From positions 18,600,001 to 18,664,000 of the forward strand of contig OZ024757.1 in NCBI GenBank assembly GCA_964016885.1: a stretch of DNA of 64,000 nucleotides, given 5' to 3'. The first letter of the stretch is position 1, and every line of letters begins with the position of its first letter. The DNA is from Eledone cirrhosa. Its lineage: Eukaryota. The translations under genes and the position numbers were made by a program. The notes under the pieces are model-generated. The model saw only the letters and a list, made by a program, of their open reading frames with translations. It ran no database searches and was not told the origin of the DNA. Below, one piece after another: positions 3,588 to 44,967 of this stretch.

Positions 3588-3692
3588 AATTGTTTCTACT
3601 TTTGGCACAAGGCCAGCCATTAACCAGTGTATTACTGGTACTTTATTTTATCGACCCCGACGGAATTTGAACTCAGACCGTAAAGGGGCATA
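3588..3692 (-). mobile_element. tRNA-derived SINE family A, partial
   Basis: Reverse complement of GGGGTCGATAAAATAAAGTACCAG...GCTGGCCTTGTGCCAAAAGTAGAAACAATT, seen in more than 15 other copies in this window. Confidence 0.8.
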
Positions 3693-3696
3693 TATA

Positions 3697-13394: not shown

Positions 13395-15920
13395 ATTATC
13401 ATCGTTTAACGTTCATCTTCCACGCTAGCATGGGTTGGACGGTTTTGTTCAATTTGATGCGGAAATGGTTGGGAGACCGTGTCTCGCTCACACGGAAGTG
13501 TCTCTGGTAGGTTTTTTTACGGTGTGGACGGAGAGGTGTACATTGAGTTAAAAGGTGTCTACTGGCTGTAGGTTTGTATACAATGGTAGTCAGGTCTTCT
13601 GAACAGCTGCAAGGCGCCAAAGGTCTCGATCCAGTCTCATTGTCTTAGAGAGGTGTAGGTGGGCAAGGTCAGGTTTTTCTTGGTCTACCCACTCCACAGG
13701 TTCCATCAATTTTCATTGCCCTGCACTTTTTTATACAGCTGTCGTCCTTCATACGCATCACATGTCCATACCAACGCAATCTCCTCTCCAGAACACAACA
13801 TTTGATACCTCTTATGCTTAGTCTCCCTCTTAGTTCGTATATGTATGTATTATTTCATTAGTATATATCATCATCATCACCGTTTTACATCCATTCTTCC
13901 ACGCTAGCATGGGTTAGACAGGTTGTCCTGTTGTGGGCAATGCAAGGTCAGGTGACCATGTCTTGCTCATACAGAACTGATTCTGGCTTGGTTTCTACAG
14001 CTGGATGCCCTTCCTAACACCAACCTCATTTACAGTGAGTGTTGGGTGCTTTTTACTGTGTCACCTACACGACCACTTAACAGTGTGGGCTGGGTGATTT
14101 TTGTCGTGACATCTCCACGACCACTTTACCGTGGTAGGGCATACTGTCTATATACTTCAGCTTCGTCTTGTACCCGTGGGAAGTCGGGTCTTCTGTATTA
14201 CTGCGTAACACCAGAGGTCTCGGTCCTGTGTCATCCCCTTTGAGAGGTGCAATAGGGTAAGGTCGGCTTTTATCACCTCATCCCAGGTCTTCTTGGGTCT
14301 CCCCATTCCAAGGCTTCCATCAACTTCTAGTGCTCTGCACCTTTTTATGCAGCTGTCATCCTTCATACGCATCACATGTCCATACCAACGCAACTGCCTT
14401 TCCTGCACACAGCATTTGATTCCTCTTATGCTCAGTCTCTCTCTCAATTCATTTATGCTTTGCCGTTCGCGTATATTACTATTACACATCTATTGGAGCG
14501 TGCAGTCTTCGTTTCTAATTCTACAGACAGCGCCCAGGTCTCACTACCAAGTAACATTATTGCTGTTCGTATGCATGCATCATAGAGTCTGCCTTTCATT
14601 TTGAGGGGAAAGCGTTTTGCAGCTAGCTGTAGTAGTAGTTCCCTGAACTTCTTCCATCCCGTTCTTACCCTAGTTATTGTACTTTCCGAAGACCCACCTC
14701 CGCTGCTAATTCGGTCACCTAGGTAGCAGAAGCTGTCTACTGTTTCTACAGAGCCCTCCCAGTTTGGTGGTGCTTGTTTCATGTGGTCATTACTTGCTTG
14801 CTGTCCCAGTGCAACTACTACATGTAAAGCTTATATTCTTTGCTAAACTTCCTGAGATCCCACTACATCTCTTATGTACATTTGCATTTGTGGCAGAGAA
14901 TGGAATTTATACCTACACCTTTCCTACATTCTGAGCAAGGCCATTTCCCTGGGGGGATCTGGGTTCTGTTTTCTCATCCACTTACGAGGACCTTTGTCTT
15001 TGTCAGGTTGACTTTGAGACCCACTTTTTCTAGGCCCTGCTTCCATGTTTGGAATTTCTTCTCTAGTTCCACCATAGATTCAGCTATAAGTTTAAGATCA
15101 TCCACGTACAGAAGTTCCCATGGGCATCCGATCTTAAACTCCTCTGTTATAGCCTGCAATATGATAATAAACAGGAGAGGGCTAAGAACAGAGCCCTGGT
15201 GGACACCAGCCTGTATGCTAAATTCCTCGCTATAGTCATTGTTAACCCTAACTTTGCTGACTGCTCCTCTATACAAGGCTTGTACAGCCTTTAGAAGCCA
15301 TTCATCTAAGAGCCCACCAGATTATGGCACGGGACACTCTGTCAAAAGCTTTCTCCCGATCAACAAATGCCAGGTCGAGCGGCTTACTTTTAGCTAGGTA
15401 CTTTTCCTGTCGCTGCCTCACAAGGAAGAGAGCATCAGTAGTGCCTTTTCCTGGCACAAACCCAAACTGCATCTTATCTAGATTTACGCAGTCCCTAATC
15501 AGTTGTGCTACTCTTTCTGTTACTTTCATGGTCCATCAGCTTTATACCTCTATAGTATCCTCTATCTAGTACATCTCCTTTACCCTTGTACCAGTTGACA
15601 ATGATGTTGCTGAACCAATCATTTGGTATGTCGCCCTCTAGTATTACCTAGTTAACAGTACGTGTGGTTATGGCGTGACCTACCGACCCAGGTGCTTTCA
15701 GTATCTCAGCAGCTATACCCGATGGACCGGTTGCTTTCCTAGTTTTCATATCCTTAATTGCCTTACTTACTACACTGCTGCTGACTTGTATTGCTGGACC
15801 CTCTTGGGGTAGGGACTCTTTATCCTATGCATTCTCCTCATTCAGTAATCTTTCATAATGGCTCTTCCACAAAACTTTCTTCTTGGCACTTTTGAGAGCA
15901 AGCTCACCTTTATCATCCCG
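13395..15920 (-). mobile_element. Stacked RTE LINE fragments and family-B tails
   Basis: LRWYGHVMRMKDDSCIK, FCYLGDRISSGGG, GVHQGSVLSPLLF, LLYVDDL, QFGFVPGKGTTDALF, KAFDRV. Confidence 0.9.
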
Positions 15921-16329: not shown

Positions 16330-18210
16330 AAGTGAGACACCAGTCCAGGGTTACACCTAGATAGACTGGGTGCTCACGGTGTTCAAAGGGGGTTCCTGAC
16401 TAGTTGACGCTTGGCTTCACAGTTTCGCAGGTGGAAGGCACACATCTGTCTCTTGGATAGATTTGCACACAGGTGGTTGTTTTCATAATAAGGTGTTAGC
16501 TCTTCCAGAGTCTATCTTCCACAACTTTGAAATCAGTGTCTTGTGCACCTATGCCAAGATCATCTGCATAGATGAAGCGGCGGGTGTCTGCACTTTTTTG
16601 GTAGGTCGTTGGTGTAGATGTTGAAGAGAAGTGATGCAAGCACACTTCCCTGTGGGATGCCATTCTTGAGTCTTCGCCATCTGCTGAGAAGTCGACAAAC
16701 ACCACACCAGTTACCATCCCTTCCTCTCATAGCCATCCTCAATGTACTGGGTGAGGTTGAGTACTGGACTAGTTGTCAAATGCTTGTTTGGGGGATGAGG
16801 TGTTCATCCACAAAGGGGCCAATTCTGTTGAGGATCAGGCGTTTAAAAAGCTTGTAGGTGTGATTCAAAAGTGAGATTGGTCTAAAGTTCTTAGAGCTGA
16901 TGGATCTTTCCCAGGTTTCAGCAGTGCTATAACATGAGCTTTCTTCCAGATGTTGGGGAGCTTGTGTGTTGTTAAGCACTCATTGTAGAGCTGTAGAAGC
17001 CACATATTTGCCTTGTGACTGCAACCAAACCGATCAAGCACTTCAATGTTATCCAGTCCAATTGATTTGAGGGTAGAGATTCCTGCTTCCAGCTCTTCTA
17101 TGATAACCAGTCTTGTAAAAGCAGGGTCCGCAGTGTATTTCTTGCGGTTTAGTTTCATCTACTTCCAGCTCTTCCCATTCTCCAGCAATTGGCTGACAAC
17201 TTGGTTGGCAGTGACTTTTGGGTGCCGAGGGGCTGCTTTAGGAGTACCATGTAGCTTGTGAATAAGTGTCCATGCTTTCTTGCACTTTTTTTTACATGTC
17301 CATAGACTCAATAAGAGATTTCCATGACTTGCTTTGCTCTTGGGCAATGCTTTCCATCACCTTCTCACCTTGGGCAGTTGTTTCTTCTGAGAAGGGGTCT
17401 ACTTTAAACATGATATAGTTGGCATAGAGTTCTGTACATTCCTTTGAAAGTCCAGGTATATATTCAACTCTACAGCCTCGTGGGATATGTTTCCAAGCAA
17501 TTTTCAGCACCAGGTAAGTAAAGAGGTTGTAGTTATATGTTTGATCTTCTCTTCCAGTTTGTTGGTGAAACCTTTCCAGTCTGCTTTGTTGTAGTTGAAG
17601 CACCTTTTGAAAGGCTGGGACTACAGCTGTATTGATTAGGATCCCAATTGGATGGAGTTGGCTTGATGGAATAGGATCCAGCACAGTCTTTGTACACAGT
17701 CCAGCTATGTTACTTGTGACCATGGTGAGATCTGGGTTATAGCCACGTTTCCAGTGAGAATTGAAAAATGAGTGGTAGCTTGGGGTCATGGATAAGACTC
17801 AGTTGGTTAGTATCCATCCAGTCCTCTACTGCTTCTCCATCCTTGTTCATTTCAGGGTAGCCCCGCTGGGTACTGTGGCTATTGAAGTCACCGATAATGA
17901 TCTGTGGTTTGCTGTGTAGTTTGGGGATTGGTTAGGAAAACAAAGTCTACAGGTGGTGGTTTATAGACAGATGTTACTGTCATGGTCATCTGACATGTTC
18001 ATTTCTTCTATAGCTAAGCCTGTTTTTACAAACATAGCACTACTGATGGGGTCACTCATTGGCCAGGACCATTCCAGGTATGGTGGGATGGTTGTTTTCA
18101 CTCCCTCTGTGTGTTGTGTCTCTTGCAAGCAGAGAACGTCACAGTGCTGCTTGCTGAATAGGTCAGCTAACATGTTTTGTTTTGCGAGGAGAGCCCTTTA
18201 ATATTTGCAG
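16330..18210 (-). mobile_element. Degenerate Vingi/Ingi-type LINE (APE and RT)
   Basis: DVLCLQET, GDFNSHS, RGYNPDL, IPRGCR..YIPGL, WKKAHVIALLKPGKDP, FRPISLL, KNGIPQGSVLASLLFNIYTNDLP, RRFIYADDL. Confidence 0.85.
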
Positions 18211-20234: not shown

Positions 20235-21758
20235 TTAATTTCCTGTATGAGTAAATACATGAGTAGCTAAATGAGTTCTTTGAGAGAATGAGCTACCACA
20301 GATATCACATTGATATGGTTTGTCTTCTGTATGAATATACCTGTGGCTTGTTAAGTTTCCTCTTTGAGCAAATGATTTCCCACAAATATCACAGTTATAT
20401 GGCTTCTCCCCTGTGTGAAGAGTTTTGTGTCTAGCTAAGTTACTACTTTTCGAAAATGATTTACCACAAATATCACAGTTGTAGTCTTTCTCGCCTCTAT
20501 GAAAACGCTTGTGAGTTTTTACATAACTTGTTTCAGAGAATACTTTCGGAGTGATATCAAATTGATATGGCTTCTGACTTGTATGAATGTGTTTGTGTTT
20601 AGTTAAATTACCGGGGTCAGATACTGCTTTACCACAGATATCACAGTGATATGGTTTCTCTCCAGTATGAATGTATTTGTGTACAGTCAATTTCCCACTT
20701 ACAGAGAATGATTTACCACAGATATCACACAGATATGGCTTTTCACCTGTATGAACTCGTTTGTGAGTAGTTAAGCTACCATTTGCAGTGAATGCCTTAC
20801 CACAGACATCACAGTGATATGGCTTCTCTCCAGTATGAATACGTCTATGAGTGGTTAGGTGATTACTTGCAGAGAATGATTTACCACAGACATCACAGTC
20901 ATATGGTTTCTCTCCTGTGTGAATACGTTTGTGTGTAGTTAAGTCACTACTTATAGAGAATGATTTACCACAGACATCACAATGATATGGCTTCTCTCCT
21001 GTGTGACTGCGTTTGTGTATAGTTAAGGCATTTCTATGTGCAAAGGATTTACTACAGACATCGCAATGATATGGCTTCTCTCCAGTATGAGTACGTATGT
21101 GAGTAGTCAAGTCACTACTTCCAGAGAATGATTTACCACAGATATGACAAGGGTATGGCTTTTCACCTGTATGTATGCGTTTGTGTTTAACTAAAATATT
21201 TGCTTTCAAGAATGATTTACCACAGACATCACAGTGATATGGCCTCTCTCCTGTATGAATACGTTTGTGAGCAGTGAATTGATTACTTTCAGCAAATGAT
21301 TTACCACAGATATCACAGTAATATGGCTTTTCTCCTGTATGACTACGCCTGTGTGTTGTTAAGGCATTAGCTTGAGAGAATGATTCATTACAGATAGTAC
21401 AGTGATAGGGTTTGTCTCCTGTATGAGTACGTTTGTGCCTTGCTAAGTTACTACTTTGAGAGAATGATTTACCACAGACATCACAATCAAACTGTCCTTC
21501 TCCTGTATGAATGCGTTTATGAATAGTTAAGTTACGTGGATGAGAGAATGATATTTTACAGATATCACAGTGATACGGCTTTTCTCCCGTATGAATAGTT
21601 TTATGTCTAGTAAGGTTGCTTTTATGAAAGAATAATTTACCACAGATATCACAGTGGTAAGTTTTCTTGTCTGTGTCTTTCAGCATCTCATCAGGAAAAG
21701 CAATACTTTCAGATTCTGTTTTAATTTCAACTTGTTGCTCACATAATTCATTTTCCAT
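20235..21758 (-). CDS. C2H2 zinc-finger protein, 16 intact fingers plus 1 Cys-less finger, 507 aa, single coding exon
   Basis: ATG at 21758 (MENELCE...) followed by 17 units of 28 aa; unit 14 ([10 protein letters not shown]) lacks both cysteines. Candidate acceptor TTTTACTTTAG at 22041-22042 (-) and candidate upstream donor CGAG|GTATAT at 26380 (-). Confidence 0.92.
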
Positions 21759-22844
21759 AATTATTTCTTCTAGTATAACCACCTCTTTAGTTTTTATATT
21801 TTATATCTAACAAATATTTACACCAATTGTAAACTTTGTTGATATCTGAAGATGCTGTAAATTCCTTTGGATATTTGTCCAAGTTTAATTAGAATGGTAA
21901 ATACTTTTGTACATATTCCACACACTGAAGTTGAGAAAATTTTTTTAAATTTCAGTTGGCAAATATTTCAGAGTTTATATTCCAGTTTATATCTGTTCTG
22001 TGTAATGACTTCTAATCTCTACAAGATGATATTGATGCATCTAAAGTAAAAAAGTAAAAAGAAATTAATTTCTGCCAATGTCATGTGCTATTGTGAAATA
22101 TACAAACAGTGTATCAAATAAAGAAGAATTATAGACAGACTCAGTGTTTTAATCCTTTTGTTTCAAAACTAGATGAAACTGGCCATAGTTCTACAATACA
22201 GTTTGATTTGGAGATGTTTGTGTTTATCTAAGAGCCTTCCAATGATGGTTTATTTTCTGAGCATTAGCTTCGTAATTAGAAACTTATATTACGAAATCCC
22301 TCCAAAATTGATATTTTTTCTCAAAATTATTTGAAAATTACGAGTATTGAATTTCATGAGAAATATGGTAACGAAAGAGTTGAGTGACGGAAGATCAGGA
22401 AAGAGTTGAGTTTTTCACTGAAGATCAGAAACAGATACTCCAATGGGTTTCCACACAGTTTCTATCTATTAAAAGTCGCCTGCTAGACTAACTTTGGTTG
22501 ACCCAAGAATATAGGAGGTATACGGATTTTTTTATACTTCTTTTTTTTCTAAAAATTAAGATAAACTGCCCTTTTCAAAGCTTGCACTAGAAATAGGGAC
22601 AAGGTGAACTTTATGTAGGTGTTTATCCCCCACCCCTACCCATTTTTATGGCATACAATTGGGGGAAAAACACATTTATGGACTGACCCAATAGTTTGAG
22701 GGATATTTCAAAAGGAGAGATTCAACAGTGAAAGATTACATTTCTCTCTCAATAAACTGTAAACATATTGGCCCCATCTATATCAACCATTCTACTTCTC
22801 TGGGCCATCACAATAGCTATGAATGAGGGATTGCATTAGATATC

Positions 22845-24433: not shown

Positions 24434-24659
24434 ATGTTCACGACACCGAGGTCTCTAATTCAACTGATGGTCACCACATGAACCATTGCTTACTATGAGA
24501 CATGTAGGATTTTTATCGAGGATTACTCCTCCATCCTATGACAGTCATATCAACGGCACCTCTTCACCACACAGATCAGTCTTCCGACAGGCTATATACT
24601 TAGCCTCAATGAGCATATATTACCCTTCATATATTACCCTTCATGACATGCACGCCACA

Positions 24660-25122
24660 TGGACATCTCAACTTACCAACAGGCTAAAACTGGAAATATT
24701 CCAAGCAACCATTAAGCCCATATTACTTTATGGATCCGAAACTTGGACACTAACATCACAACTTGAGAGGAGATTGGATGGCACATATACCCGCCTCTTA
24801 ATGAGAGTGCAAAACCTATCCTGGAAACGACATCCCACCTTGTCTAAAATCTATGGCAAACTCCCTCGAGCCTCTGCCCTTCTAAAATCCCGGAGAGCTC
24901 AATTTGCTGGCCACTGTCACCGTGCCAGCAATGAAATCATATCCGCTCTCTTGCTCTGGAACCCTGACTCCAGCCTGACTAGGAGTAGAAAGCTGTCATT
25001 CCCTGACGTTATCTCTAGGGATACGGGAATCAGCAAACAGGACCTGGGGGCAGCGATGAGGGACAGGGGATTCTGGGGCATGAGAGTGAGATCCATCATC
25101 TCGACAGTAGTCGACGAGTGAT
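24660..25122 (+). mobile_element. 3' fragment of a Proto2/RTEX-like LINE
   Basis: ILLYGSETWTLT..LDGTYTRLL..RRAQFAGHCHR..EIISALLLWNP; ends GTCGACGAGTGATG. Clade assignment is from memory. Confidence 0.8.
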
Positions 25123-31985: not shown

Positions 31986-32340
31986 GTTCAGCAGAAAGCA
32001 TCAACAAGAGACAGCTTCAGTAGAACCTTATCAGTTAAATAGGTACCACCATACAACTAGCACCATCACAATCTTTAACAATAACCACACTAACGATCTG
32101 AAGCCAGTGTTATGCTTAAATTACTTATTCTTCTTTATTGAAACCCAGACATCACCATTCCAGTTTTTATCGCAGCTTCTTTTATTTTAACAAGCATCAA
32201 CAGTTTATTTTTTTATTTCTCCTTCGTTATTATTAATATTGAGGTCCCCCTCTCACCTTTCTCTTTCATATAATCCCCATTCGGTTCCTTGTTTACCACG
32301 ATACCAAGGAATCAGTCTCCAAGCAACTATATATACACAC

Positions 32341-32372
<32 letters not shown>

Positions 32373-32446
32373 ACTGTATATACGCACACATATATATATA
32401 TATACAATTATACTCACATATATATACAACTATACACACACACACA

Positions 32447-32497
<51 letters not shown>

Positions 32498-33435
32498 CAA
32501 CAATTAACGGATATTTCCGATTATTTTAGTTGAGGGCGTCCTACCTTTATTAGTTCTTTTTAATTTGCGATTTCGGATTATTTTTGATTTCATGTTGAAA
32601 CCAATTCTCATGTGAGTTCTTTGAGGAATTTTACTTCAATTATTTTATCATCCGCAATAATAACACCTGTAATCACATCACCTGTCTACTTCAATTAATT
32701 CTTAAAAATAAACCAACACCGAACAGCAATTACAGTTAAAAGGTAAGCGAAAAACTATATATATATATATATATACATATGTAATCTGAGTTTTTCGAAT
32801 ATTAATAATTGTTTCTACTTTTGGCACAAGTCCAGCTAATAAATACCCCAGTGTATTACTGGTACTTTATTTTATCGACCCCGTAATTTATATATATATA
32901 TATATATAAGCAATGAATTATTTAATTTGTTGATTATTCAACAAATTTAATTTATAACAGATTAGATTAGATTATATATGTGTGTGTGTGTGCATATATG
33001 TGTCTATGTATGTGTATGTATGCATATATATATATATGAATAAAGTTAGTCCTTCATCAGTGATCTTCCAACCATCATTGGTATTTCATCGATATTTACA
33101 TATATATATATATATACACACACACGTACTTACATATCTGGAATTAACTCCCACATTCTTCGTTATGTTTACAAGTTTCTTTTTCTTTCAGTGGGAATCA
33201 ATTTATGAACATATTAAACATATATTTAACGTACAACTTTTCTACACCTTTCTTTATTCATTTATCTTTTATACTCATTTTAATATTGAGTTTCTGTAGA
33301 ATTTCCTTCTAAAACACTCCGTATATATATTTTGGGGTTAAGTGATGTTTCTTTTGTTTAGAAACCTGTGATGAAAATATTCGATGTGTGTACATACGCT
33401 GTTCCCTGTATGTAAACTAGGGGGCACTATGTATA

Positions 33436-33482
<47 letters not shown>

Positions 33483-33813
33483 ATAAAACTTTGGTTAAAT
33501 ACCATGGCGTGACTGGGGGTTTAAAGCCGACCCTTAGTTAGATATTGGGGTTTTAAGGGTTACTATGAAGGGCTCCCTTAGAAACAGGTTGAGATACCGA
33601 AGAATCAACTTCTCCACGTTTTATATTAACAAAACAATCGACATTTTTATCTGGAATTATTATTTCTCTATAAATATTTTCATAGAGGAAATCAAATATA
33701 AGATAAGAATGTGATAACGTCAGAACTGTGTATTTTATATAACCACAACTGTAGCTAGATTGTTGAGATAATTTACCAGTGATATTGTTAATAAAAGCAT
33801 TACTTTCTATATA

Positions 33814-33852
<39 letters not shown>

Positions 33853-33975
33853 CAAGGGCAACCAAGGCAGATTATGGTACGCTTTCATCAGATAAAACAA
33901 ATCTGTATATATATATATATATATATGAAATATGAAATATATGAAATATAATATATATATATATATATATGTATA

Positions 33976-34024
<49 letters not shown>

Positions 34025-34531
34025 AATGAAGTAATTCCGTCGGAAAAGTCCAGAAAAAAAGAGTGCTCTATGTAGGTAACAGAGCTTAATAGTTATGTTA
34101 AATTCCTATAGAATACACAAGAATCAAAGCTATGTTAGAACATTTAATTGCCTGCAATTGTTACTTCCAAGCCTAGGCTTGGAGTCTTCGGAGAATTATT
34201 AATAATGTTTTTACATATAATCCAAAAAAAAGAAATAGGATTTCGCTTCAAGCATAGCTTTATACAATATGTATAAATATTTCGTATCTCCAAAGAAATA
34301 CAGTTTTAGGAAGCCGTAGCTATGCAGATACCCGGGGGCTAACGCCTTCTGGTGATGTCCAGTAGAAGCAAGGGGGACAAATATATATATAGTTATGTAA
34401 TAAACAACATAAGATAATTATTTCATTTACCAATGGTTTCTTGAAGACAGATACTTATGTCTGTCTTCATTCAACAGAAGAAATATTTATTTATTTTTCC
34501 TTTTCCTTTACTTTTCCTACGGAAATACTTC

Positions 34532-34565
<34 letters not shown>

Positions 34566-34569
34566 GCAT

Positions 34570-35355
34570 ATTGTTGGTGTTAGGAAGGGCATCCAGCCGT
34601 AGAAAACCTGCCAGACAGTCCTATACGAGCAAGACAACCAATCTTGCCTCAAGTGGAACAATTCCCGTCTAAAGCCATGCTAGCGTAGAAGACAGATGTT
34701 AAACGATGATGATGATATATATATAATATATATATATGTGTGTGTGGGTTCTATAGAAATGGTTGATAGCTTCCTGTACCTGGGTCATCAGATTAGCATG
34801 GGAGGGGGTTGTTCCGAGGCCATAGTGTCTAGAATAAGGACAGGTTTAGGGAGCTGCTTCCTCTGTTGACAAAGAAGGGCATCTCCCTGCGTACGAAAGG
34901 CCGGTTATATGATGCCTGTGTGAAATGCGCGATGCTGCATGATAGTGAGACATGGGCAGCAACTGCAGAGGATATGCGACGGCTGGAGAGAAATGAAGCA
35001 GGCATGCTCCGTTGGATGTGCAATGTCAATATGCGTGAACGACTAAGCATAGACGAGTTGAGAGAGAAACTGTGTATAAGAGGGATAAGTTGTAGTGTGC
35101 GGAAGAGAAGACTGAGATGGTATGGACATGTGATGCGCATGAAGGACGACCACTGGGTAAAGAAGTGCCAAGTAATCCCAGTAGAAGGAAGACCACGAAA
35201 AACATGGGTGGAGGTGGTGAGAACAGACCTCAGATCAATGAAGCTCACAGAGGAGATGACTAGGGACAGTGACAAGAGGAGAGATGCTGTGCTGAAAAGG
35301 ACCCGTCCCACCCTTGCAAGCAGGGAAAAGCAGACGTAAAATGATGATGATGATG
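34570..35355 (+). mobile_element. Family-B tail followed by an RTE LINE 3' end
   Basis: KGRLYDACV..SETWA..RRLERNEAGMLRWMC..RRLRWYGHVMR..GRPRKTW; ends GACGTAAAATGATGATG. Confidence 0.9.
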
Positions 35356-35360
35356 ATATA

Positions 35361-35391
<31 letters not shown>

Positions 35392-35797
35392 TATATATAT
35401 ATCAATTAAAAGTGAGAAAGGCGCTGTGTGTTTACTAATAATATATATCTCCTGGAATGAGAGGTCTGGGTGATGTGTTGAGAAAGGTTGAGAGAAAGGA
35501 ATAGTGGAAATGTATGTGGAAGGAAGTACGTGGGTCGGCTGACCAAGATACTCTCATGAAACGAATCAAATATTATTATCTCCTATGTTAGAGTGAAAAA
35601 TCAAATTCTCATTTTGTTTATATATATATATATATATATATGGGGTAACAGATTATTGTTATATAGCAAACCGTGTCACTCTTCTTTCCTGATTTATATA
35701 TATATATATATATATATATAACAAAGGAAATGTGGTAAGGAACCAGGTGGACCATAACGCACCAAAGTACTCAATACTTAGGGTAGTAGAGTGGGTA

Positions 35798-35890
35798 ATA
35801 GGAACCAGTAAGACCCCGACGGCTAATTCTGGACCGAATTAGCCGTCAAAACGGCTTGAGCTCAGCCGTCGGGGTCTTACTGGTTCCTAT
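35798..35890. repeat. Palindromic MITE-like element with 27-bp perfect arms and an inner hairpin
   Basis: ATAGGAACCAGTAAGACCCCGACGGCT / AGCCGTCGGGGTCTTACTGGTTCCTAT; inner GACGGCTAATTC..GAATTAGCCGTC. Confidence 0.85.
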
Positions 35891-36787
35891 ATATATATAT
35901 ATATACAATATATTAACAAATGGAAACTATATTTATAAAACCATATTTATTTTATTATACATATTTCAAGGGCCACCAAGGCAGATTATGGTGTACTTTC
36001 ATCAGATGAAATATAATACAGATTAGTTTTATAAATAAATATTGACATACCCTGAAAAAATGCAACCTTACCAGTTGGAGCTTCCTGGATAGTGGAGATA
36101 TTAGACTTATTGTTGATTTAGTATGCAAATATGTTAATATATTGTATATTTACTCCAATAATTTGTTGAGTGCTTTATATCAGTTATAAAAATATTTTAG
36201 CTTGTTGTATCCCAACAAATTAAATATAACCTCTACATATATATATATATATATATAAATGTATAACATAAAGTACAAATCAACAGGTTATAATTCACAT
36301 CATATATTCATAATCACTGTTATTTATATTTTGGTGATATGTTATATAACAGCTATGACCTCATCAGACAGCTAGAAGTTGAACAGAAAAACAATGAAAA
36401 AATAAAACTTTTTGATTTATTGATATACTCCGGGCTGATATTTGGTGTTGCTTTCTGAAAGCACTGTTGACATATGACTTGGAATAAACAGCCTCACAGC
36501 ATCAGCAAAGTGGGTATATAAGGCCTGCTATCAGAGTTAGCTGCTGGTCAGAGTTAGCTTCACCACAACATCATTAAGTTATTTGAATTGCTTAGTGGTG
36601 CCATTGTCTGAGATGTAGCTTCAACTTGTTCAGGAATCAGGTCAGTCAGCCAAGGATTGACCTGGTAGATAGGTTGCTGTGTCAGATGGAATTGTTTTCA
36701 GTAGCAACAAGAACCAATGATATCTTAGTTAGAAGTGGCAGTTGACCCCAGTGACCATGGTAGTAGTAGCGGCACTAGTGATAATAT

Positions 36788-36975
36788 AATTGTTTCTACT
36801 TTTGGCACAAGGCCAGCAATTACCCAGTACATTACTGGTACTTTATTTTATCGACCCCCGTAAGGATGAAAGGCAAAGTTAACCTCGGAGGGATTTGAAC
36901 TCAGTCCGTAAAGGGACGTAACTCTATGCTAGAAAGCATGGCGTCCGACCCTCTACTGATACTACCAATCCACTT
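36788..36975 (-). mobile_element. SINE family A, full length
   Basis: Reverse complement of the full SINE. Confidence 0.85.
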
Positions 36976-36999
36976 CAGTATATAATATAGTATAATGAC

Positions 37000-37480
37000 C
37001 TCCACCTGCTTTCCTGTCGCTACAGTGCCGGCCGCCTTCCACGCCATGCTGCCCTCAATGAGGTCATAAAGCAGGGCTTGGATGTGCAGGCTTCCCCTGC
37101 CAGGTCGAGCCGGTGGGGTTGGACTGAGGGGACGGCAAAAAGTCAGACGGTATGACCATCTTCCCGTTCTGCGGTGGCGAACCCCTCGTCTGGGATGCCC
37201 ACTTGCAGCGACACTTTCTCCACTTGCCACATGGTGCAGTCTGCGACTATCCCAAGTACTGGTCGCTCTCCGACAGGTTTGCAGTCGTGCCCTTGGCAGT
37301 GGAGACTTCTGGTGTCCTTGGTCCTAGGGCTACCTCCATAGGCACTGAGCTGGCGAGCCACAGGTGTGAGCCTCGCGAGATGGAATGGCTCTTCCAGTGC
37401 ATCTCCCTTACCATCCTCTGGCGAAATGCCTTCTCCATTCTGTCCACTGGGGCTGTGGGATGTGTGGAAAGTCCTAGACT
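37000..37480 (+). mobile_element. CRE-clade-like retrotransposon 3' fragment (RLE domain)
   Basis: HLLSCRYSAGRLPRHAALNEVI, EPVGL..DGKKSDGMTIFPF..G.PLVWDA, KY..L..RF.VVPLAVETSGVLG, WLFQCISL.I..NA. Confidence 0.8.
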
Positions 37481-37560
37481 CTGCCAATGTCTAATATGTC
37501 TCACAATATTGTGGGATGTGTGAAAAGGCCTAAACTCTGACAATGTCTAATGTCTCACAA

Positions 37561-37771
37561 AGGAAACGATCGACTTTGGTGAAATCGGACCGTGGGAACA
37601 ATGTTTCCGTTGGTCTTTCCAATTGCTAATACTATCTATCGGTCGCAACTCCAGGTAGAAGGAGCAACGTGAAATAAAGTGTCTTGCTCAAGGACATAAC
37701 GCATCGCCTGGTCCAGGAATCGAACTCACAACCTTACGATTGTGAATCCAATTCTCTAACCACTCAGTCTC

Positions 37772-37819
<48 letters not shown>

Positions 37820-38450
37820 TAGAGATAAGAGGGATCAGATGTTGTTTACTCGAGAGAAGGCTACGTTGGTATGGACACGTGATGCGCATGAAAGTCGATA
37901 GCTGTATAACAAAGTGCAGGGCAATAAAGATAGACGGTAGCCACGGAATAGGCAGACCTAGAAAAACCTGGGACGAGCTGATAAACTCCGACCTCACACA
38001 CTTACACCTCTCCAAGACAATGTCACTGGACCGAGACCTTTGGCGGTACTCAGTAACAGAGAAGACCCGCCTTGCCAGTAGGCATCTCTAACAAAATACA
38101 CCCGTCCCACCACCTCCCCCACCCATCCACACCACCCGTCCTATGTAAAGTTATGTTGGTGCCGCGCCATCCAGGCCGAAACAAATGAGATCGTGTAGGT
38201 GTCACGACAAAAAAACACACAGTCCACGCTGTAATGTGGCCGTGTAGGCAACACGGTAAAAACCTCCCAGACCCACACTGTAAATGTGGTTGGTGTTAGG
38301 AAGGGCATCCAACTGTAGAAAACCTGCCAGACAGTCCTATGCGAGCAAGACAATCACTCTTGCCTCAAGTGGGACTACCCCCGTCCAAACCCATGCAAGC
38401 GTGGAACACGGACGTTAAACGTTGATGATGATGATGATGATGATGATGAT
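37561..38450. mobile_element. Cluster: SINE C (-, 37561-37770), RTE 3' fragment (+, 37815-38090), family B (+, 38180-38450)
   Basis: Motifs as in other copies; RRLRWYGHVMR..GRPRKTWDEL. Confidence 0.8.
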
Positions 38451-38744
38451 ATATACAGGGATATAGAATATACTAAGAAACGAATTATATTTGCAAGGAG
38501 GAAATGGGGGAAATCTAAAGAAACAAAGGCAAGTTGTCTCTGATCAAGACGAAGTGAGAGTGTATTTAAATACATATAAAAACAGCGATGGGCAAATATG
38601 TCTCAGAGGACAGAGATCAGCGACCAATGGTGAACAGAGAGACAATCCACAAGATGGGTGACATTCCAGTCACATCTGTCTATCATCACACTTCTCATTG
38701 TTCTCCTCCTTTTTCAATCTTTTCTATATTTCATCTGTCACCCA

Positions 38745-38798
<54 letters not shown>

Positions 38799-38834
38799 CT
38801 TTGCAGGTTTAGTGCTCTCTCCTCCTGCAGCTAA

Positions 38835-39083
38835 ATGAATAAACCACCGGTGCCCTACCTGGAGTCTACATTCCACATCCACCAACGCTACGAAGACACG
38901 GCGCTGCTCATTTTCCAGCAAATTCAGAAGAAAAAGAGGTCCAACTATTCCCAGTTTTCCAACAAACCTTTCCCGTCGACGTCCAATTACATCCAGGTGG
39001 ATCACTATGGTAACAGTGGAGTGGTGGCAAAAAAGGAAGTGCTCCAGCCTGCCGAGGCAATGGTAACAGACAAGATAAAATAA
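38835..39083 (+). CDS. Unassigned 82-aa small protein upstream of RABEPK (putative)
   Basis: ATG just after two splice acceptors (TTTGCAG at 38807, CCTGCAG at 38830) with an in-frame TAA immediately before it. Non-repetitive; about 52 of 82 codons end in G/C in an AT-rich background. No family recognised. Confidence 0.55.
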   Translation: MNKPPVPYLESTFHIHQRYEDTALLIFQQIQKKKRSNYSQFSNKPFPSTSNYIQVDHYGNSGVVAKKEVLQPAEAMVTDKIK

Positions 39084-39336
39084 CTTCAAAGACATGTACA
39101 ATACTGTAAAGCTTGCAGTAGTTAAAGTCCAAGGAATCTCTTCAGTATTATTGTCAAGCTTTACTTTCAATTATCGAATGAGTGAAAGATGGGTAAAGGA
39201 GACTTGATAGGGGTTAAAACTGAGAATAACGATCTGATTAATTAATGATTGTAGAATAATGAATGATCATTAGATGCCTGGTTACATGAACTTACACAAA
39301 CCTTATTAAATGTGCTGCTTTCTTCTTGTTTGAGGT

Positions 39337-40168
39337 ATGGAGGTTCTACCTTATTTCAAAGCTGATAGTGAACCTGTGGCTTTTGTGTGGTACTTGCTTG
39401 AAACTAGTGGGGATGAGCCGAAATGTAGAGTAGGTCATAGTGCATACGTAGTCAAACGAAACAATGCAGAGGCACCAAACGATAATGGACAGCTTTATCT
39501 AATTGGAGGTGCTAATCCGGATAATACGTTCTCTGATAATCCAATTCTGGACTTGAACTCTTGGCAATGGAGTTACAAAGAGTTCAGTGGATTCGTGCCA
39601 CGCTACGAACAGTCGCTGTTCTCCATCCGGAATGAACCCAGATCCATTTATATCTTCGGTGGAGCAAACCAAACAGACACCCTAAACAACATCCAGTACT
39701 TGGACACGAATGCCAGAAAATGGCTGATGCTGACCCCTGGAGGGGACATCCCGGCAGCCAGGACCCATCACTCAACCACTTCGGTTGACGATCACTTTGT
39801 CGTGTTTGGGGGTGGAGCGCAAGGCACAAGCCCGGTGATGGATGCCAAAGTACACTGCTTCTGTGTGTCCACATCAACATGGTCAACGCTGGACATCAGT
39901 GGACCAGCACCAAAAGCTCGCCTTGGCCATATCTCGGTTGGTATAGGCCAGAAGGTCTATATTCATGGTGGTCTGTGTGAGGATGAGTTTTTTGATGATG
40001 TCCATGTGTTGGACATGGAAACGGAGTCATGGCAACAGCTGGAACTATCTGGACAACGTCCATCTGCTCGAGCAGCTCACGGTGCTGTTGCCAATGGTGA
40101 TATCATCTACATCTTCGGAGGAATGTCTGTAGATGGCGCTCTTAATGACTTTTACCAATTGGATACAG
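39337..40168 (+). CDS. RABEPK: Rab9 effector protein with kelch motifs, coding exon 1
   Basis: WY.L...GD.P..RVGHS, IGGANPD..FSD, PRYE, IFGGANQ, RT.H, VFGGG..G..PV.D.K.H.F, IHGGL....F.DD.H and YIFGGM...GAL match RABEPK/p40; donor ACAG|GTGATT after 40168 (phase 1). Confidence 0.88.
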
Positions 40169-40199
40169 GTGATTGGTTATTTCTTTCTCTGTTACTGCA

Positions 40200-41390
40200 T
40201 CACCACCACTACCTTACTACAACCTATACCACCACTACCATACTACAGCCTATTCCACCACCGCTACCTTACTACAACCACTACCATACTACAACCTATT
40301 CCACTACTACCATACTACAGCCTATACCACCACCACTACCATACTACAGTCTATACTACCACCACTACCATACTACAGCCTATACCACCACTACCATACT
40401 ACAGCCTATACCACCACCGCTACCTTACTACAACCACTACCATACTACAACCTATTCCACTACTACCATACTACAGCCTATACCACCACCACTACCATAC
40501 TACAGTCTATACTACCACCACTACCATACTACAGCCTATACCACCACTACCATACTACAGCCTATACCACCACTACCATACTACAGCCTATACCACCACC
40601 GCTACCTTACTACAACCACTACCATACTACAACCTATTCCACTACTACCATACTACAGCCTATACCACCACCACTACCATACTACAGTCTATACTACCAC
40701 CACTACCATACTACAGCCTATACCACTACTACCATACTACATTCTATACCACCACCACTACCATACTACAGCTTATACCACCACCACTACCATACTACAG
40801 CCTATACCACCACCACTACCATACTACAGTCTATACTACCACCACTACCATACTACAGCCTATACCACCACTACCATACTACAGCCTATACCACCACCAC
40901 CATACTACAGCCTATACCACTACTACCATACTACAGTCTATACCACCACTACCATACTACAGCCTATACCACTACTACCATACTACAGTCTATACCACCA
41001 CCACTACCTTATTACAACTTATACCACCAATACCATACTACAGCCTATACCACCGCCACTACCATACTACAACCTATTCCACCACTACCATACTACAACC
41101 TATTCCACCACTACCATACTACAGCCTATACCACCACCACTACCATACTACAGTCTATACCACCACCACTACCATACTACAGCCTATACCACTACTACCA
41201 TACTACAGTCTATACCATTACTACCATACTACAGTCTATACCACTACTACCATACTACAGTCTATACCACCACCACTACCTTACTACAACCTATACCACC
41301 ACTACCATACTACAGCCTATACCACTACTACCATACTACAGCCTATACCACCACCACTACCACCATACTGTAGCCTATACCACCACATAG
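40200..41390. repeat. Intronic minisatellite (ACCACTACCATACTACAGCCTATACC-like, ~27-30 bp units)
   Basis: Visible directly; it is open in all three plus-strand frames and produces the artefactual 678-aa ORF. Confidence 0.95.
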
Positions 41391-41829
41391 TGTTGTTTTG
41401 TACTAAATGTTTATAGTATCTTTACTAGTTGACAGATTATTGTGAAAATTTACAGCATTACAGTAAAGACTTCAATATTTAATGTGATGTAGTCATAGTA
41501 CTGTTTTGTACTAAATGTTTATAGTATCTTAGGGGACAGATCATTATGAAAACAGTCATAGTGCTGTTTTGTACTTTTCAAGAATGTCTTGTTAATGCAG
41601 TTTTGTGTAGTTTGTTAATTTAAATGTTTATAGTATCTTTACTAGTGAACAGTTTATTGTGACAATTTACAGTATTAGCCATAATAATGTTTTATACTTG
41701 TCAATAATGGCTTGTTAATGTGGTGTCATGTAGGACAGGACATTAAGAGTTAAATTTACCTTAAGGTTTTTTAATATATAATAAGTTGTACATGTGTGTT
41801 TATTTATTTATTTTATATATTTCTACTAG

Positions 41830-42018
41830 TTTCTCTGACTTCCACACGAATTGCTGTTGATGCACCAGCCCCAAGCCCTCGGCTAGACTTTGCCATGACG
41901 ATCACTGAAATATCTTTAGCTCAGCTACGATCACAACGAAAATCCTGCTCAGATGATAATTTGGAACCCTTGGCAGACCCTGAGCAAAGCGCGGAGTCAG
42001 ACCTTCAGCCTTCTAATG
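41830..42018 (+). CDS. RABEPK: RABEPK coding exon 2
   Basis: Acceptor TTCTACTAG|; VSLTSTRIAVDAPAPSPRLDFAMT (compare PPGRLDHSM in RABEPK); 189 nt, phase 1/1; donor AATG|GTAATG. Confidence 0.8.
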
Positions 42019-42234
42019 GTAATGTCCCCTCTTTTTCTCACTGTTGTTACAGTTCAAACCTGGGTTTAACTGACCTCTCTATGATGTTATATCTCATAAG
42101 AGGTTTCTTGGATGTTTTAATGATAATAGTTTCTAGTTTAAGAACAAAACTATTTTGTGTGTGTAAGAGGAGAGTGGTGTAAGAGGAGAGTGGCGTGAGA
42201 GGGGAGTGGCGTAACAGGGGAGTGGCGTAACTAA

Positions 42235-43265
42235 TCCGTAATTTCCATCAATTTTGTTCGCCCTGCACTTTCTCATGCACCTGTTGTCTTTCATGCACAT
42301 CACATGACCATACCAACGTAATCTCCTCTCAAGTAAACACCATCTGATCCCTCTTATTCCTAATTTCTCACTCAGTTTATTTATGTTTTGCCGTTCGCGT
42401 ATATTACTATTAAACATCCAACGGAGCATACATGCTTCGTTCCATTCTGCGCAGGTCCTCTGCACGCAATGCCCATGTCTCACTGGCATGTAGCATTGCT
42501 ATAATAATAGTGAAATTATTGTGTACAGTGCTCAGGTGCACTACAACTCATCAAAGATGCATGTATAGTACATAGAATAATGTACAAATGTCAGGAAAAT
42601 GAACAGTGTATGAGTCATGATATAATAATAATAGCAATAATGAAATATTGTGTACAGTGCCCAGGTGCACCACAACTCATCAAAAAAGTGCATGTACAGT
42701 ACATAGGGCAATGCACAAACATCAGTAAAATGAACAGTGCACGAGTCATGATACACACATGTGTGCATGTGTATGGAAGGGGTACATCAGGTGTAGTGCT
42801 GTTTGTATACAAGCATCATACAATCATTTTTAGAGCGAAACTTTTTGTGGCCCACAGCGGTATAAGCTTTCTGAACTTTTTCCATCCTGTTCTAACTCTG
42901 GCTACTGTACTTTCAGAGCACCCTCCACCACTGATTTTGTCACCCAGGTAACGGAAAGTGTCTACTATTTCTATAGAACCATCTTGGCAGTGAAGGAGAT
43001 AGCATCCAGTGGGCACTTGCGACTTACTGCACCTTAGCATCGGCCACATATAAAATCTACATTCTTAGATAGCTTGCCTGTGATCCCACTACATTTTTTA
43101 TGTACCTATAGTTTGCATTTGGGGCATTGAATGGATTTTCTACCTACTTTTTTCCGACACACTGAGCATGGCCATTTTCCTTTTTACATACTAGAACTTT
43201 AGTCTTATACAAGTTAACTTTAAGGCCTTTTGATTCTGGGCCATGCTTCCATGTTTTGAATTTTT
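42235..43265 (-). mobile_element. Intronic RTE fragments interrupted by a duplicated insert (42500-42810)
   Basis: RRLRWYGHVM, FRYLGDKISGGG..ARVRTGWKKFR, KGLKVNL.KTKVL. Confidence 0.8.
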
Positions 43266-43294
43266 TTTTATATATATATATTATATTATTATTG

Positions 43295-43600
43295 TTATTC
43301 CCGCCGAGGTTAACTTTGCCTTTCATCCTTACGGGGTCGATAAAATAAAGTACCAGTAATGTACTGGGATAATTGCTGGCCTTGTGCCAAAAAGTAGAAA
43401 CAATTATTGTTATTATTATTATTATCGGTAGAGGGTCGGACGCCATGCTTTCCAGCATAGAGTTACGTCCCTTTACGATCTGAGTTCAAATCCCGTCGAG
43501 GTTGACTTTGCCTTTCATCCTTACGGGGTCGATAAAATAAAGTACCAGTAATGCACTGGGTAATTACTGGCCTTGTGCCTAAAGTAGAAACAATTATTAT
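43295..43600 (+). mobile_element. Two SINE A copies in tandem
   Basis: The core appears twice, separated by (ATT)n. Confidence 0.85.
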
Positions 43601-43754
43601 TTTTTATTTTATTTTATTTTATTTTATTTTTCGTGCAATGGCCATACTCGATAACGAGGGGGCAGCCATTAAATATATATACACACTGTATGTAGAGAGA
43701 CAACAGGTGTATATTCAGAATTTGTCACACTAATACACTTGTATAATATTGCAG

Positions 43755-44160
43755 AAGTACTACTACTACTACTACCTCTACTACCACAATTACCACCAAT
43801 ACCACTACTACCCCCACCACCACCAATACCACTACTACCCCCACCACCACCAATACCACTGTCACCATTACCACCACCACTACTACTACTACTACCACTA
43901 TCACTATCACCACTACCACCACCACCTCTACTACTACTAGCACTACTACCACTACCACCACTACTACTACTACCACCACCATTACCACTACTACTACCAC
44001 CAGTACTACCACCACTACCACTACTTACCACCGCCCCTACCACTACTACTGCTACTACTACCACCATTACCACCGCCACCACTACTACCACCACCACCAC
44101 CACCACCACCACCACCACTACCACTACCAGTACAACCACTACTACTACCACCACTACTAT
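43755..44160. repeat. (ACC/ACT)n tract
   Basis: Visible directly. Confidence 0.95.
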
Positions 44161-44211
44161 AATGTGTCATCTCCAAGTTGTTTTCATCTGACTCTCTTTC
44201 TTTAATTGCAG

Positions 44212-44330
44212 GCTGTGAAGCGGAAGCTGAGTGTAGTCCAAGTGAGACATACACAGTTTGTCTCATCCATGGTGGTATGGACACTGAGGGTGGAATCTTT
44301 AACGACACCCTTCTTATCTTTCTTTCTTGA
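44212..44330 (+). CDS. RABEPK: RABEPK coding exon 3 (with stop)
   Basis: Acceptor TTTAATTGCAG|; GCEAEAECSPSETYTVCLIHGGMDTEGGIFNDTLLIFLS* (compare CLVFGGMNTEGEIYDD). Total CDS is 832+189+119=1140 nt, 379 aa. Confidence 0.85.
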
Positions 44331-44967
44331 ACTATTTCACACAATTTCCCATTCTTCACTCGAACAAATATTTTTGTCTTTTATACCTTCGACTATTCTT
44401 CTTAACTCCTCTATTTGATGTCCCAACCTTTGGCAATGCTATCTCCTAAGCCCTACCAATATATATATATATATATACCCCCCCATCTCCTAATAAAGTC
44501 CTGAATCCCCAACAAAACAGTTCCCTACACTCACACAAATGTAGCCCCTATAACTCCACTATCCTTTATATTCAGCTCTATAGTTCCTTAAACTCCCACC
44601 AGCCTCATACTCCTTAATAAAGTCCTGAATCCCCAACAAAACAGTTCCCTAAACTCACACAAATGTAGCCCCTATAACTCCACCATCCTATGTCCTGATC
44701 TCAAATAGTATAGTTCCTTAAAATACCCCCAATGCAGCCCCAATAACTCCACTATTACATGTCTGAATCTCCAACAGTATAGTTCCCTAAACACCACCAA
44801 TAATGACCCCTAAATTTCATCATTCTATGCCCTAATCAGATCAATTTTTTACCCTCTTTTAATATTTCCCGAGTATGTGGGACTACATGTTTGAACATGT
44901 GTGTATTTATGTGCATTTTAGGGAGTTCTTTTCATTATCAATTCACAAGAATCCCTTTTATTAGCAT

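What the first reader, a model, noticed from the sequence alone, without database searches (positions are those of the whole stretch)
38807..39340. Coding-like 82-aa ORF directly upstream of RABEPK: candidate bicistronic or uORF-encoded microprotein
Seen: after two splice acceptors (38807, 38830) there is a non-repetitive ORF, MNKPPVPYLESTFHIHQRYEDTALLIFQQIQKKKRSN...DKIK. An in-frame TAA directly precedes its ATG, so it cannot be an internal exon in that frame. About 52 of 82 codons end in G/C in an AT-rich region. It stops 253 nt before the RABEPK ATG, with no canonical AATAAA between them. RABEPK has no YAG acceptor just before its ATG (only TTGAG), so both ORFs may lie on one exon. The RABEPK ATG also sits inside a donor-like GAG|GTATGG. 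Established: bicistronic animal mRNAs with conserved upstream proteins exist (ASDURF/ASNSD1, MIEF1-MP/MIEF1, MOCS2A/B), but I do not recognise this peptide. Inference: either an undescribed microprotein co-transcribed with a Rab9 effector, possibly toggled by splicing, or an N-terminal extension through a weak TATG|GT(39010) to GAG(39334) splice that would be in frame.
Basis: partly seen in the sequence, partly recalled or inferred. Interest (0 to 1): 0.75.

Follow-up and report, generated by a model that had tools for sequence, protein, structure and literature searches.

The report
Ancient small protein sharing RABEPK's mRNA
In an octopus, one exon carries an unnamed, conserved small-protein gene directly in front of the trafficking gene RABEPK, a pairing also seen in annelid worms and likely read from one shared message; the family is predicted to be lipid-anchored, but this copy has lost the in-frame anchor signal, which an intact copy elsewhere in the genome likely supplies.

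Summary
The 82-codon ORF is a real gene. A spliced contig puts it and RABEPK's first 277 codons on one 1,362-nt exon. A processed copy on contig C2 carries both ORFs across a RABEPK splice junction, which points to one shared mRNA. There RABEPK decayed while the small ORF stayed intact (dN/dS 0.07). The protein belongs to an unnamed mollusc and annelid family with no Pfam or PDB match. It has an N-terminal RYxD/IF helix and a YG/VV motif, and 20 of 22 family hits end in a CaaX box. Family members lie upstream of RABEPK in 4 of 6 informative animal loci. The window's copy lacks one base, so its CaaX tail sits in the -1 frame at the stop. Best reading: an ancient bicistronic mRNA encoding a predicted prenylated adaptor; RABEPK is likely reached by leaky scanning and reinitiation. 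The N-terminal-extension splice is unsupported. It is not a G-gamma homologue. Translation and binding to RABEPK are unshown. This scan had not noted it before.

The parts
32469..32742 (+). Non-coding first exon; donor AAG|GTAAGC. Holds a 7-codon uORF at 32592-32615.
   Evidence: The last 30 nt match the X1 contig's loose end, uniquely in the genome.
38807..40168 (+). Exon 2 (1,362 nt), carrying both the small ORF and RABEPK codons 1-277
   Evidence: X1 contig lies on it with 0 differences and 0 gaps, with loose ends at both splice sites
38835..39083 (+). 82-aa microprotein ORF of an unnamed CaaX family; weak start context (T at -3); this copy has no in-frame CaaX
39080..39109 (+). Out-of-frame (-1) remnant of the family's C-terminus, ending in CaaX (CTIL) and a stop
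   Evidence: 8 of 9 residues identical to the in-frame end of the C2 copy; the other three differing codons are synonymous or stop-to-stop
39084..39336 (+). 253-nt spacer: 33% GC, 9 ATGs, ATTAAA at 39305, and a pyrimidine tract with a GAG ending at 39334 (possible minor acceptor)
39337..40168 (+). RABEPK (Rab9 effector with kelch motifs) CDS, part 1; strong start context
   Evidence: Pfam Kelch hits; 85% identical to O. vulgaris RABEPK
41830..42018 (+). RABEPK exon 3
   Evidence: X1 contig piece 41828-42019; GT-AG ends
44212..44514 (+). RABEPK last exon (stop ends about 44330; 379-aa protein); AATAAA at 44492-44497
   Evidence: It rests on the acceptor, the match to the RABEPK C-terminus, and the contig's remaining length ending about 17 nt after AATAAA.

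Best explanation
The ORF is a conserved protein-coding gene that shares one exon, and likely one spliced mRNA, with RABEPK; its family is predicted to be prenylated membrane-tethered adaptors, but this copy's anchor signal is out of frame and the intact C2 retrocopy likely supplies the anchored form. Shown: exon structure, purifying selection, the family, its position upstream of RABEPK in annelid-like and one bivalve-like locus, the one-base frameshift, and an intact ORF beside decayed RABEPK in the C2 copy. Inferred: (1) The small ORF is the first long cistron and is translated from a weak start (about 0.85). (2) RABEPK is made from the same mRNA at lower, regulatable level by leaky scanning and reinitiation after short uORFs, as proposed for STREMI-SLC35A4-type messages (about 0.55). 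(3) CaaX-bearing members are farnesylated (X mostly Met) or geranylgeranylated (CTIL) and sit on membranes, presenting the invariant RYxD/IF helix and YG/VV motif to a partner (prenylation about 0.85). (4) The most likely partner is the RABEPK/Rab9 endosomal machinery, so that it works like a G-gamma-type lipid anchor for a propeller that has none of its own (about 0.25). (5) The parent copy lost its CaaX frame once the retrogene was available (about 0.6).
For: One exon: X1 contig. One molecule: the C2 copy holds the small ORF and then RABEPK remnants running through the exon 2/3 junction (mRNA model 1618-1703). That intron sits at the same place in L021, so its absence on C2 points to reverse transcription of a spliced message carrying both ORFs. 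L022 is a second transcript-like contig with the small ORF, a 175-nt gap and an uninterrupted 392-aa RABEPK. Selection: dN/dS 0.073; three annelid-like pairs give pS 0.80-0.91 against pN 0.21-0.26. On C2, codon positions 1+2 differ at 11 of 134 sites in the small ORF against 29 of 138 in the RABEPK remnant (p 0.003), and an 18-nt in-frame gap keeps CaaX in frame. Family: 22 of 23 profile hits are members and 20 of those 22 end in C-x-x-x. Named members come from Pinctada, Littorina, Mactra, Plakobranchus and Paralvinella, all hypothetical or uncharacterised. L027's ORF is letter for letter the Paralvinella protein P0073. Start context: the small ORF has a pyrimidine at -3 in 3 of 4 loci; RABEPK has a purine at -3 and G at +4 in 4 of 4. 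Mammalian p40 is mostly cytosolic with about 30% on membranes (PMC2138197, abstract).
Against: No ribosome profiling or peptide data. X1's kind is not on record (RNA is inferred from its splice joints), it is one sample, and a short-read contig can merge overlapping transcripts. 14 ATGs precede the RABEPK ATG in the window mRNA model and 16 in L022, several in strong context, so scanning to RABEPK must be inefficient. 2 of 6 informative loci (L023, L030) show no family ORF within 4 kb upstream. L023 and L027 have canonical acceptors just before RABEPK, so RABEPK-only isoforms may exist. Retention of the small ORF without RABEPK on C2 shows that it can be selected without the shared message, and STREMI and SLC35A4 are reported not to depend on each other functionally (PMC13303939, passages). 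No G-gamma homology.
Confidence: 0.7

Rival explanations
1. Two neighbouring genes that share exon 1 but mostly use separate messages. The small gene ends at ATTAAA 39305. RABEPK comes from a minor exon 1-to-39335 (GAG acceptor) isoform or from a start inside the spacer. The long RNA is read-through that yields only the small protein.
For: 9 spacer ATGs. The GAG at 39334 has 15 of 17 pyrimidines upstream, the most of five sites compared. Canonical acceptors lie just before RABEPK in L027 and L023. ATTAAA followed by a U-rich stretch.
Against: The only X1 contig on this stretch is unbranched and uses the 38807 acceptor. L021, L022 and L027 have no A(A/T)TAAA in the spacer, and L022 has no pyrimidine-rich acceptor near its ATG. 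The retrocopy derives from a message with both ORFs.
Confidence: 0.2
2. The window's copy is a decaying parent. Since the retrogene took over, the CaaX-less 82-mer has no protein function and the ORF survives only as a cis-acting brake on RABEPK translation.
For: CaaX is out of frame in the assembly and in all four runs laid (0 gaps; at most 2 samples), although the motif is nearly invariant in the family (28 of 29 rows in alignment A5).
Against: The window's 82-mer scores higher against a non-octopod family profile (73-80 bits) than the C2 copy or P0003 (68-74 bits), so it shows no decay. CaaX-less forms also occur as annotated Littorina isoforms and in P0058. A recent frameshift would leave no time for decay, so this does not exclude the rival.
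Confidence: 0.15
3. The parent copy still makes some anchored protein by a -1 ribosomal slip on the A run just before the stop, so it produces both forms.
For: The zero frame up to the stop matches P0045 (5 of 15 identical, BLOSUM 22, against 1 of 15 and -3 for the -1 frame). The C2 copy and P0003 use the -1 frame over this stretch, so the missing base may predate the duplication. The -1 tail is still nearly unchanged: if neutral, 4.7-7.9 amino-acid-changing differences are expected; P(2 or fewer) is 0.125-0.004.
Against: No stimulatory structure follows the upstream A_AAA_AAG heptamer (z -0.49 to -1.18). A recent, independent deletion in the same A run explains the same data without recoding. 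The grouping of C2 with P0003 rests on 3 sites against 1. -1 recoding is very rare in animal cellular genes (own knowledge).
Confidence: 0.07
4. The ORF is an N-terminal extension of RABEPK, joined by the 39010-to-39334 splice.
For: The join is in frame and keeps the YG motif.
Against: Not seen in X1. The donor is not conserved. No fused protein among 23 profile hits or 17 longer candidates. Named octopus RABEPKs start at the same Met. The family's C-terminal CaaX needs its own stop.
Confidence: 0.03
5. A neutral or transposon-derived ORF.
For: Repeat-rich surroundings.
Against: Two copies found in the genome (counts are lower bounds), strong purifying selection, and homologues in two phyla at the same locus.
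Confidence: 0.01

Closest known systems
Human bicistronic mRNAs with a conserved upstream protein: STREMI-SLC35A4, ASDURF-ASNSD1, MIURF-MIEF1, PYURF-PIGY (PMC13303939; I read section 7, found passages, and searched its supplements)
   Same: A 70-105-codon conserved protein ORF ahead of an unrelated enzyme or trafficking ORF on one spliced message; purifying selection on both; the downstream CDS is largely intron-poor.
   Different: A different, unnamed protein family. It is predicted to be prenylated rather than mitochondrial or a chaperone subunit. Found in molluscs and annelids. RABEPK is not in that paper's list of human candidates (0 hits in Dataset EV1). Here the upstream cistron has spawned a retained retrocopy. 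Translation is not shown here.
Heterotrimeric G-protein gamma subunits (PF00631)
   Same: Small, N-terminal helix, C-terminal CaaX; encoded next to a beta-propeller protein. Top ESM Atlas feature hits for P0073 are G-gamma clusters at 0.76, a lead only.
   Different: No Pfam match. Profile-profile probability is 0.3%, aligning only 4 CaaX columns. Neither copy appears in the genome-wide G-gamma search. The neighbour is a Kelch propeller, not WD40.
Yeast Gpb1/2 (Krh1/2) kelch proteins with Gpg1 (PMC3247754, passages)
   Same: Precedent for a small protein proposed as a gamma-like partner of kelch propellers.
   Different: That review says the gamma-like role was only 'initially considered'. No sequence relationship was tested or is implied.
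RABEPK/p40 (PMC2138197, abstract; PMC12035522, passages)
   Same: The downstream ORF is its orthologue.
   Different: No upstream protein is reported for RABEPK in the library searched (none of the 20 papers listed mentions RABEPK).

Membership tests
Bicistronic mRNA with uORF-encoded conserved protein | Both ORFs on one mature transcript | tested here: met
   Spliced contig with both ORFs on one exon; processed copy holding both; second transcript-like contig L022. No long read.
Bicistronic mRNA with uORF-encoded conserved protein | Upstream ORF under protein-level purifying selection | tested here: met
   dN/dS 0.073, with frame and permutation controls; annelid-like pairs
Bicistronic mRNA with uORF-encoded conserved protein | Arrangement conserved across species | tested here: met
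   Directly upstream of RABEPK in 3 of 6 informative loci, 2.65 kb upstream in 1, not within 4 kb in 2
Bicistronic mRNA with uORF-encoded conserved protein | The two-ORF form is the predominant isoform | tested here: inconclusive
   Only contig laid in X1; one sample, and contigs drop rare variants
Bicistronic mRNA with uORF-encoded conserved protein | Both ORFs translated from that transcript | not testable with these tools
   Needs Ribo-seq, proteomics or reporters
CaaX-prenylated proteins (family level) | Cys four residues from the C-terminus | tested here: met
   20 of 22 family hits; 28 of 29 rows of A5; C2 copy and P0003
CaaX-prenylated proteins (window copy) | In-frame terminal CaaX | tested here: not met
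   Stop at 39081-39083; the CaaX lies in the -1 frame
CaaX-prenylated proteins (family level) | Lipid attached, membrane-bound | not testable with these tools
   Inferred from the general CaaX rule (own knowledge)
G-protein gamma subunit (PF00631) | Sequence or profile homology | tested here: not met
G-protein gamma subunit (PF00631) | Obligate binding to a beta-propeller | not testable with these tools
   Needs a binding experiment
RABEPK orthologue (downstream ORF) | Kelch repeats; nearest named proteins are RABEPK | tested here: met
Processed retrocopy (C2 copy) | Loss of an ancestral intron | tested here: met
   Continuous across the exon 2/3 junction; the intron is present at the same site in L021
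Processed retrocopy (C2 copy) | Poly(A) tail and target-site duplication | not tested
   Not searched for specifically
Programmed -1 ribosomal frameshift | Slippery heptamer plus 3' stimulatory structure | tested here: not met
   A_AAA_AAG at 39029-39035, but no structure beyond shuffles; the A run before the stop is not a canonical heptamer

The most novel reading that the evidence does not exclude
Since the mollusc-annelid ancestor, RABEPK's mRNA has co-encoded its own prenylated anchor subunit, a G-gamma-like partner for a Kelch propeller from an undescribed family. Molluscs switch that anchor on and off: by alternative last exons in a snail and a bivalve-like locus, and in this octopod by splitting it between an anchored retrogene and a parent whose CaaX tail is reachable only by a -1 ribosomal slip at the stop.
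Probability: 0.12. Interest if true: 0.9.

Novelty: new variant of a known kind. Interest (0 to 1): 0.7.

Why it matters
The well-documented animal bicistronic messages in the papers I read are human. This one appears to be shared by molluscs and annelids, which split more than 500 million years ago (own knowledge). It encodes a protein family with no name, Pfam entry or solved relative, and gene finders miss it or call it hypothetical. The C2 copy is a natural experiment: from one two-gene message, selection kept the small ORF and let RABEPK decay, which is strong evidence that the microprotein itself matters. If it is a lipid anchor for RABEPK, it offers a testable answer to how this mostly cytosolic Rab9 effector reaches membranes in these animals. 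The CaaX-on and CaaX-off forms give a ready handle for experiments.

Tried and rejected
Complex prediction of P0004 (RABEPK) with P0003 gave no verdict (score 0.02, alignments not used, controls not folded); it is not evidence either way. No run on record as RNA was listed. No C2-copy contig lay in X1, which does not show silence. A resemblance to the C-terminus of Ras GTPases, recalled from memory, was dropped: no Pfam or PDB match, and family members are complete short proteins. G-gamma membership was rejected. A-to-I read-through of the TAA before the ATG was rejected: exon 1 is non-coding and homologues start at this Met. I first placed the missing base at A_AAA_AAG and then moved it to the A run before the stop after comparison with P0045. 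The family profile separates the two placements by only 2-3 bits, so the site is not certain. The AlphaFold2 model of A3 gave one helix (12-41), pLDDT 64.5, pTM 0.29; no fold search was run on it. Atlas on P0001 gave nothing usable. Rfam found 0 hits in 32300-44600. The single PDB profile hit (E 0.72) was treated as chance. P0059 (819 aa, repeated bacterial-type protein) was dropped as a false hit. Alignment A5 omits P0001, P0055, P0058, P0059, P0070, P0071 and P0074, five of them family proteins without terminal CaaX besides the window copy, so its 28 of 29 overstates the share; 20 of 22 is the unselected count. Of 12 loci, six were set aside: L031 and L032 (distant kelch, 27-29%), L028 and L029 (no 5' end), L026 (17 nt upstream) and L024 (98% identical to L025, 403 nt upstream). 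No Logan RABEPK with the same longest-contig length as P0003 (2454) was found, so P0003's context is unknown. A third RABEPK-like copy seen in X2-X4 was not found in the assembly. Literature: RABEPK with 'upstream open reading frame' 0 papers; RABEPK with uORF 0; a family motif 0; (listings only) showed nothing on this pair. The library lacks most subscription papers, four large supplement archives of PMC13303939 were unreadable, and bioRxiv supplements are closed.

Full report
OBSERVATION. The window is G000:C18:18,600,001-18,664,000 of a 3.0-Gb genome. The RABEPK tree places it with octopods, as sister to O. vulgaris and O. bimaculoides at about 86% identity. The downstream ORF is RABEPK.

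TRANSCRIPT. A 2,128-nt contig of run X1 lies on 38807-40166 and 41828-42019, with 0 differences and loose ends at both ends of exon 2. Its upstream 30 letters occur once in the genome, at window 32711-32740, just before a GTAAGC donor. X1's kind is not on record; I take it as cDNA from these joints. The model is exon 1 (to 32742), exon 2 (38807-40168), exon 3 (41830-42018) and exon 4 (44212 to about 44514), giving a 379-aa RABEPK. Exon 4 and the 5' edge of exon 1 are inferred. I set their outer ends from the contig length, so the total is not an independent check, but the 3' end then falls about 17 nt after AATAAA. Exon 1 holds only a 7-codon ORF, so the small ORF is the first long cistron. 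14 ATGs precede the RABEPK ATG.

THE C2 COPY. One other copy was found, on C2. It has an intact 85-codon ORF ending in CTIL. After it come RABEPK remnants with stops, frameshifts and a deletion of about 700 nt, running without a break across the exon 2/3 junction. L021 has that intron at the same position, so the C2 copy is most simply a processed copy of a message that held both ORFs. This supports a single mRNA independently of contig assembly. Between the copies, codons 1-67 give dN/dS 0.073; the other five frames and 5000 permutations do not reproduce this. Positions 1+2 differ at 11 of 134 sites in the small ORF against 29 of 138 in the RABEPK remnant (p 0.003). So the small ORF was likely kept by selection on C2 while RABEPK decayed. 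A GC3 difference between the copies (63% against 40%) may inflate dS. P0003 (Logan, 91 aa, CTIV) groups with the C2 copy at 3 informative sites against 1 and may be the retrocopy's orthologue in another species. Expression of the C2 copy is not shown.

THE FAMILY. A three-sequence profile found 23 proteins among 1.84 billion representatives, of which 22 are family members of 85-511 aa. They share an N-terminal motif with invariant R, Y, D, I and F, a linker of very variable length, a YG/VV motif, and Ser-x-x-Cys-a-a-X at the end; 20 of the 22 end in CaaX. Five of ten clusters looked up have named members: Pinctada, Littorina, Mactra, Plakobranchus and Paralvinella, all hypothetical or uncharacterised. 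There is no credible Pfam or PDB match. The fold model shows one helix over the conserved motif and is otherwise extended. The range outside molluscs and annelids was not tested.

SYNTENY. A metagenome scan with a RABEPK alignment gave 12 loci, six of them informative. In L021, L022 and L027 a CaaX member ends 368, 175 and 338 nt before the RABEPK ATG (E 1e-8 to 1e-11 with the octopod profile). These loci group loosely with Capitella (93/96, not starred), and L027's ORF equals the Paralvinella protein. L022 is transcript-like, with an uninterrupted 392-aa RABEPK. In L025 (mollusc-like, weak support) a family exon ending CVIT lies 2.65 kb upstream. Between it and RABEPK is a 411-codon repeat-rich ORF that opens at an acceptor of the same phase and stops 230 nt before RABEPK; it could be an alternative, CaaX-less last exon, but the shared upstream exon lies outside the locus. 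L023 and L030 show no member within 4 kb.

THE MISSING BASE. In the window the family's tail is present at 39080-39109 but in the -1 frame, overlapping the stop. All four runs agree with the assembly (at most two samples of one study), so this is not an assembly slip. The zero frame up to the stop matches P0045 better than the -1 frame does, which places the lost base most likely in the A run before the stop, though not with certainty. Two histories fit. One is a recent deletion, tolerated because the retrogene makes the anchored form; I prefer this. The other is an old deletion with the tail kept by -1 recoding, for which no stimulatory structure was found. CaaX-less forms also appear as annotated Littorina isoforms and in P0058.

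MECHANISM. Shown: shared exon, conserved linkage, selection, CaaX in the family, frameshift in this copy. Inferred: ribosomes start at the weak ATG of the small ORF, and some pass it and reach the strong RABEPK start through leaky scanning and reinitiation after short uORFs. The weak-then-strong pattern holds in 3 of 4 and 4 of 4 loci, but the many upstream ATGs imply low output, and a minor RABEPK-only isoform through the GAG at 39334 remains possible. By the general CaaX rule (own knowledge), members ending in Met would be farnesylated and the CTIL form geranylgeranylated. The simplest function is a membrane-tethered adaptor. I commit to RABEPK/Rab9 endosomal machinery as its likeliest partner at about 0.25. 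This rests on long linkage and on p40 being mostly cytosolic (PMC2138197, abstract), against the precedent that co-encoded proteins can be functionally independent (PMC13303939, passages).

COMPARISON AND NOVELTY. It works like the human STREMI-SLC35A4 and ASDURF-ASNSD1 messages and meets the transcript, selection and conservation criteria; translation could not be tested. It resembles G-gamma in layout only (Atlas lead 0.76; homology not met). No paper in the library searched links RABEPK to an upstream ORF, and human RABEPK is absent from a list of candidate human bicistronic transcripts. Earlier scan notes hold nothing on this pair. One unchecked note describes a different multi-cistronic leader (MKKS) in this genome.

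VERDICT. A real, ancient and apparently undescribed small-protein gene on RABEPK's exon and probably its mRNA; a new variant of a known kind. Interest 0.7.

Noticed in passing
L025:1032-1355 and 2535-3770: Two same-phase acceptor-led exons upstream of RABEPK: a CaaX-ending family exon and a 411-codon repeat-rich ORF on the RABEPK exon. Possibly alternative last exons giving anchored and unanchored forms.
   Followed up: partly
P0070, P0071 against P0052, P0072: Littorina isoforms of the family diverge at one point into CaaX-less and CaaX-bearing ends, suggesting alternative splicing of the anchor.
   Followed up: partly
window 39657-40145 (X2-X4 contigs): A further RABEPK-like DNA copy with many substitutions and deletions appears in the three large runs but was not found in the assembly by two exact patterns.
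   Followed up: partly
window 39337-40168 and P0007, P0008, P0012, P0014, P0016, P0017, P0019: RABEPK's first ~277 codons seem to lie on one exon in many invertebrates: several predicted proteins end at 278-291 aa just past the same position. This fits an old retroposition of RABEPK behind the small gene, as proposed for SLC35A4, but was not tested.
   Followed up: no
G000:C13:28.23-28.91 Mb (L033-L035): A cluster of at least three single-ORF G-protein gamma genes; one (L035) has its CaaX-like motif followed by extra residues.
   Followed up: no
window 9194-10348 (+) and 20238-21800 (-): Two long C2H2 zinc-finger ORFs (385 and 521 aa), read by eye.
   Followed up: no
window 4772-5410, 14456-15535, 16499-18198 (-), 24468-25118 (+): Fragments that look like LINE reverse-transcriptase ORFs (label by eye, not searched).
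   Followed up: no
L002, flanks of the C2 ORF: An element with inverted ends appears to lie about 35 nt upstream of the C2 ORF (resemblance to an octopus MITE is recalled, untested), and a short piece of RABEPK exon 3 appears tandemly repeated downstream.
   Followed up: no
P0052: A family member listed from a Digyalum oweni transcriptome clusters with Littorina proteins; probably host contamination (own knowledge: a gut parasite of Littorina).
   Followed up: no
L021:7182-7421: An ORF downstream in the RABEPK locus ends in a CaaX-like CVVM but scores only E 3 against the family profile.
   Followed up: no
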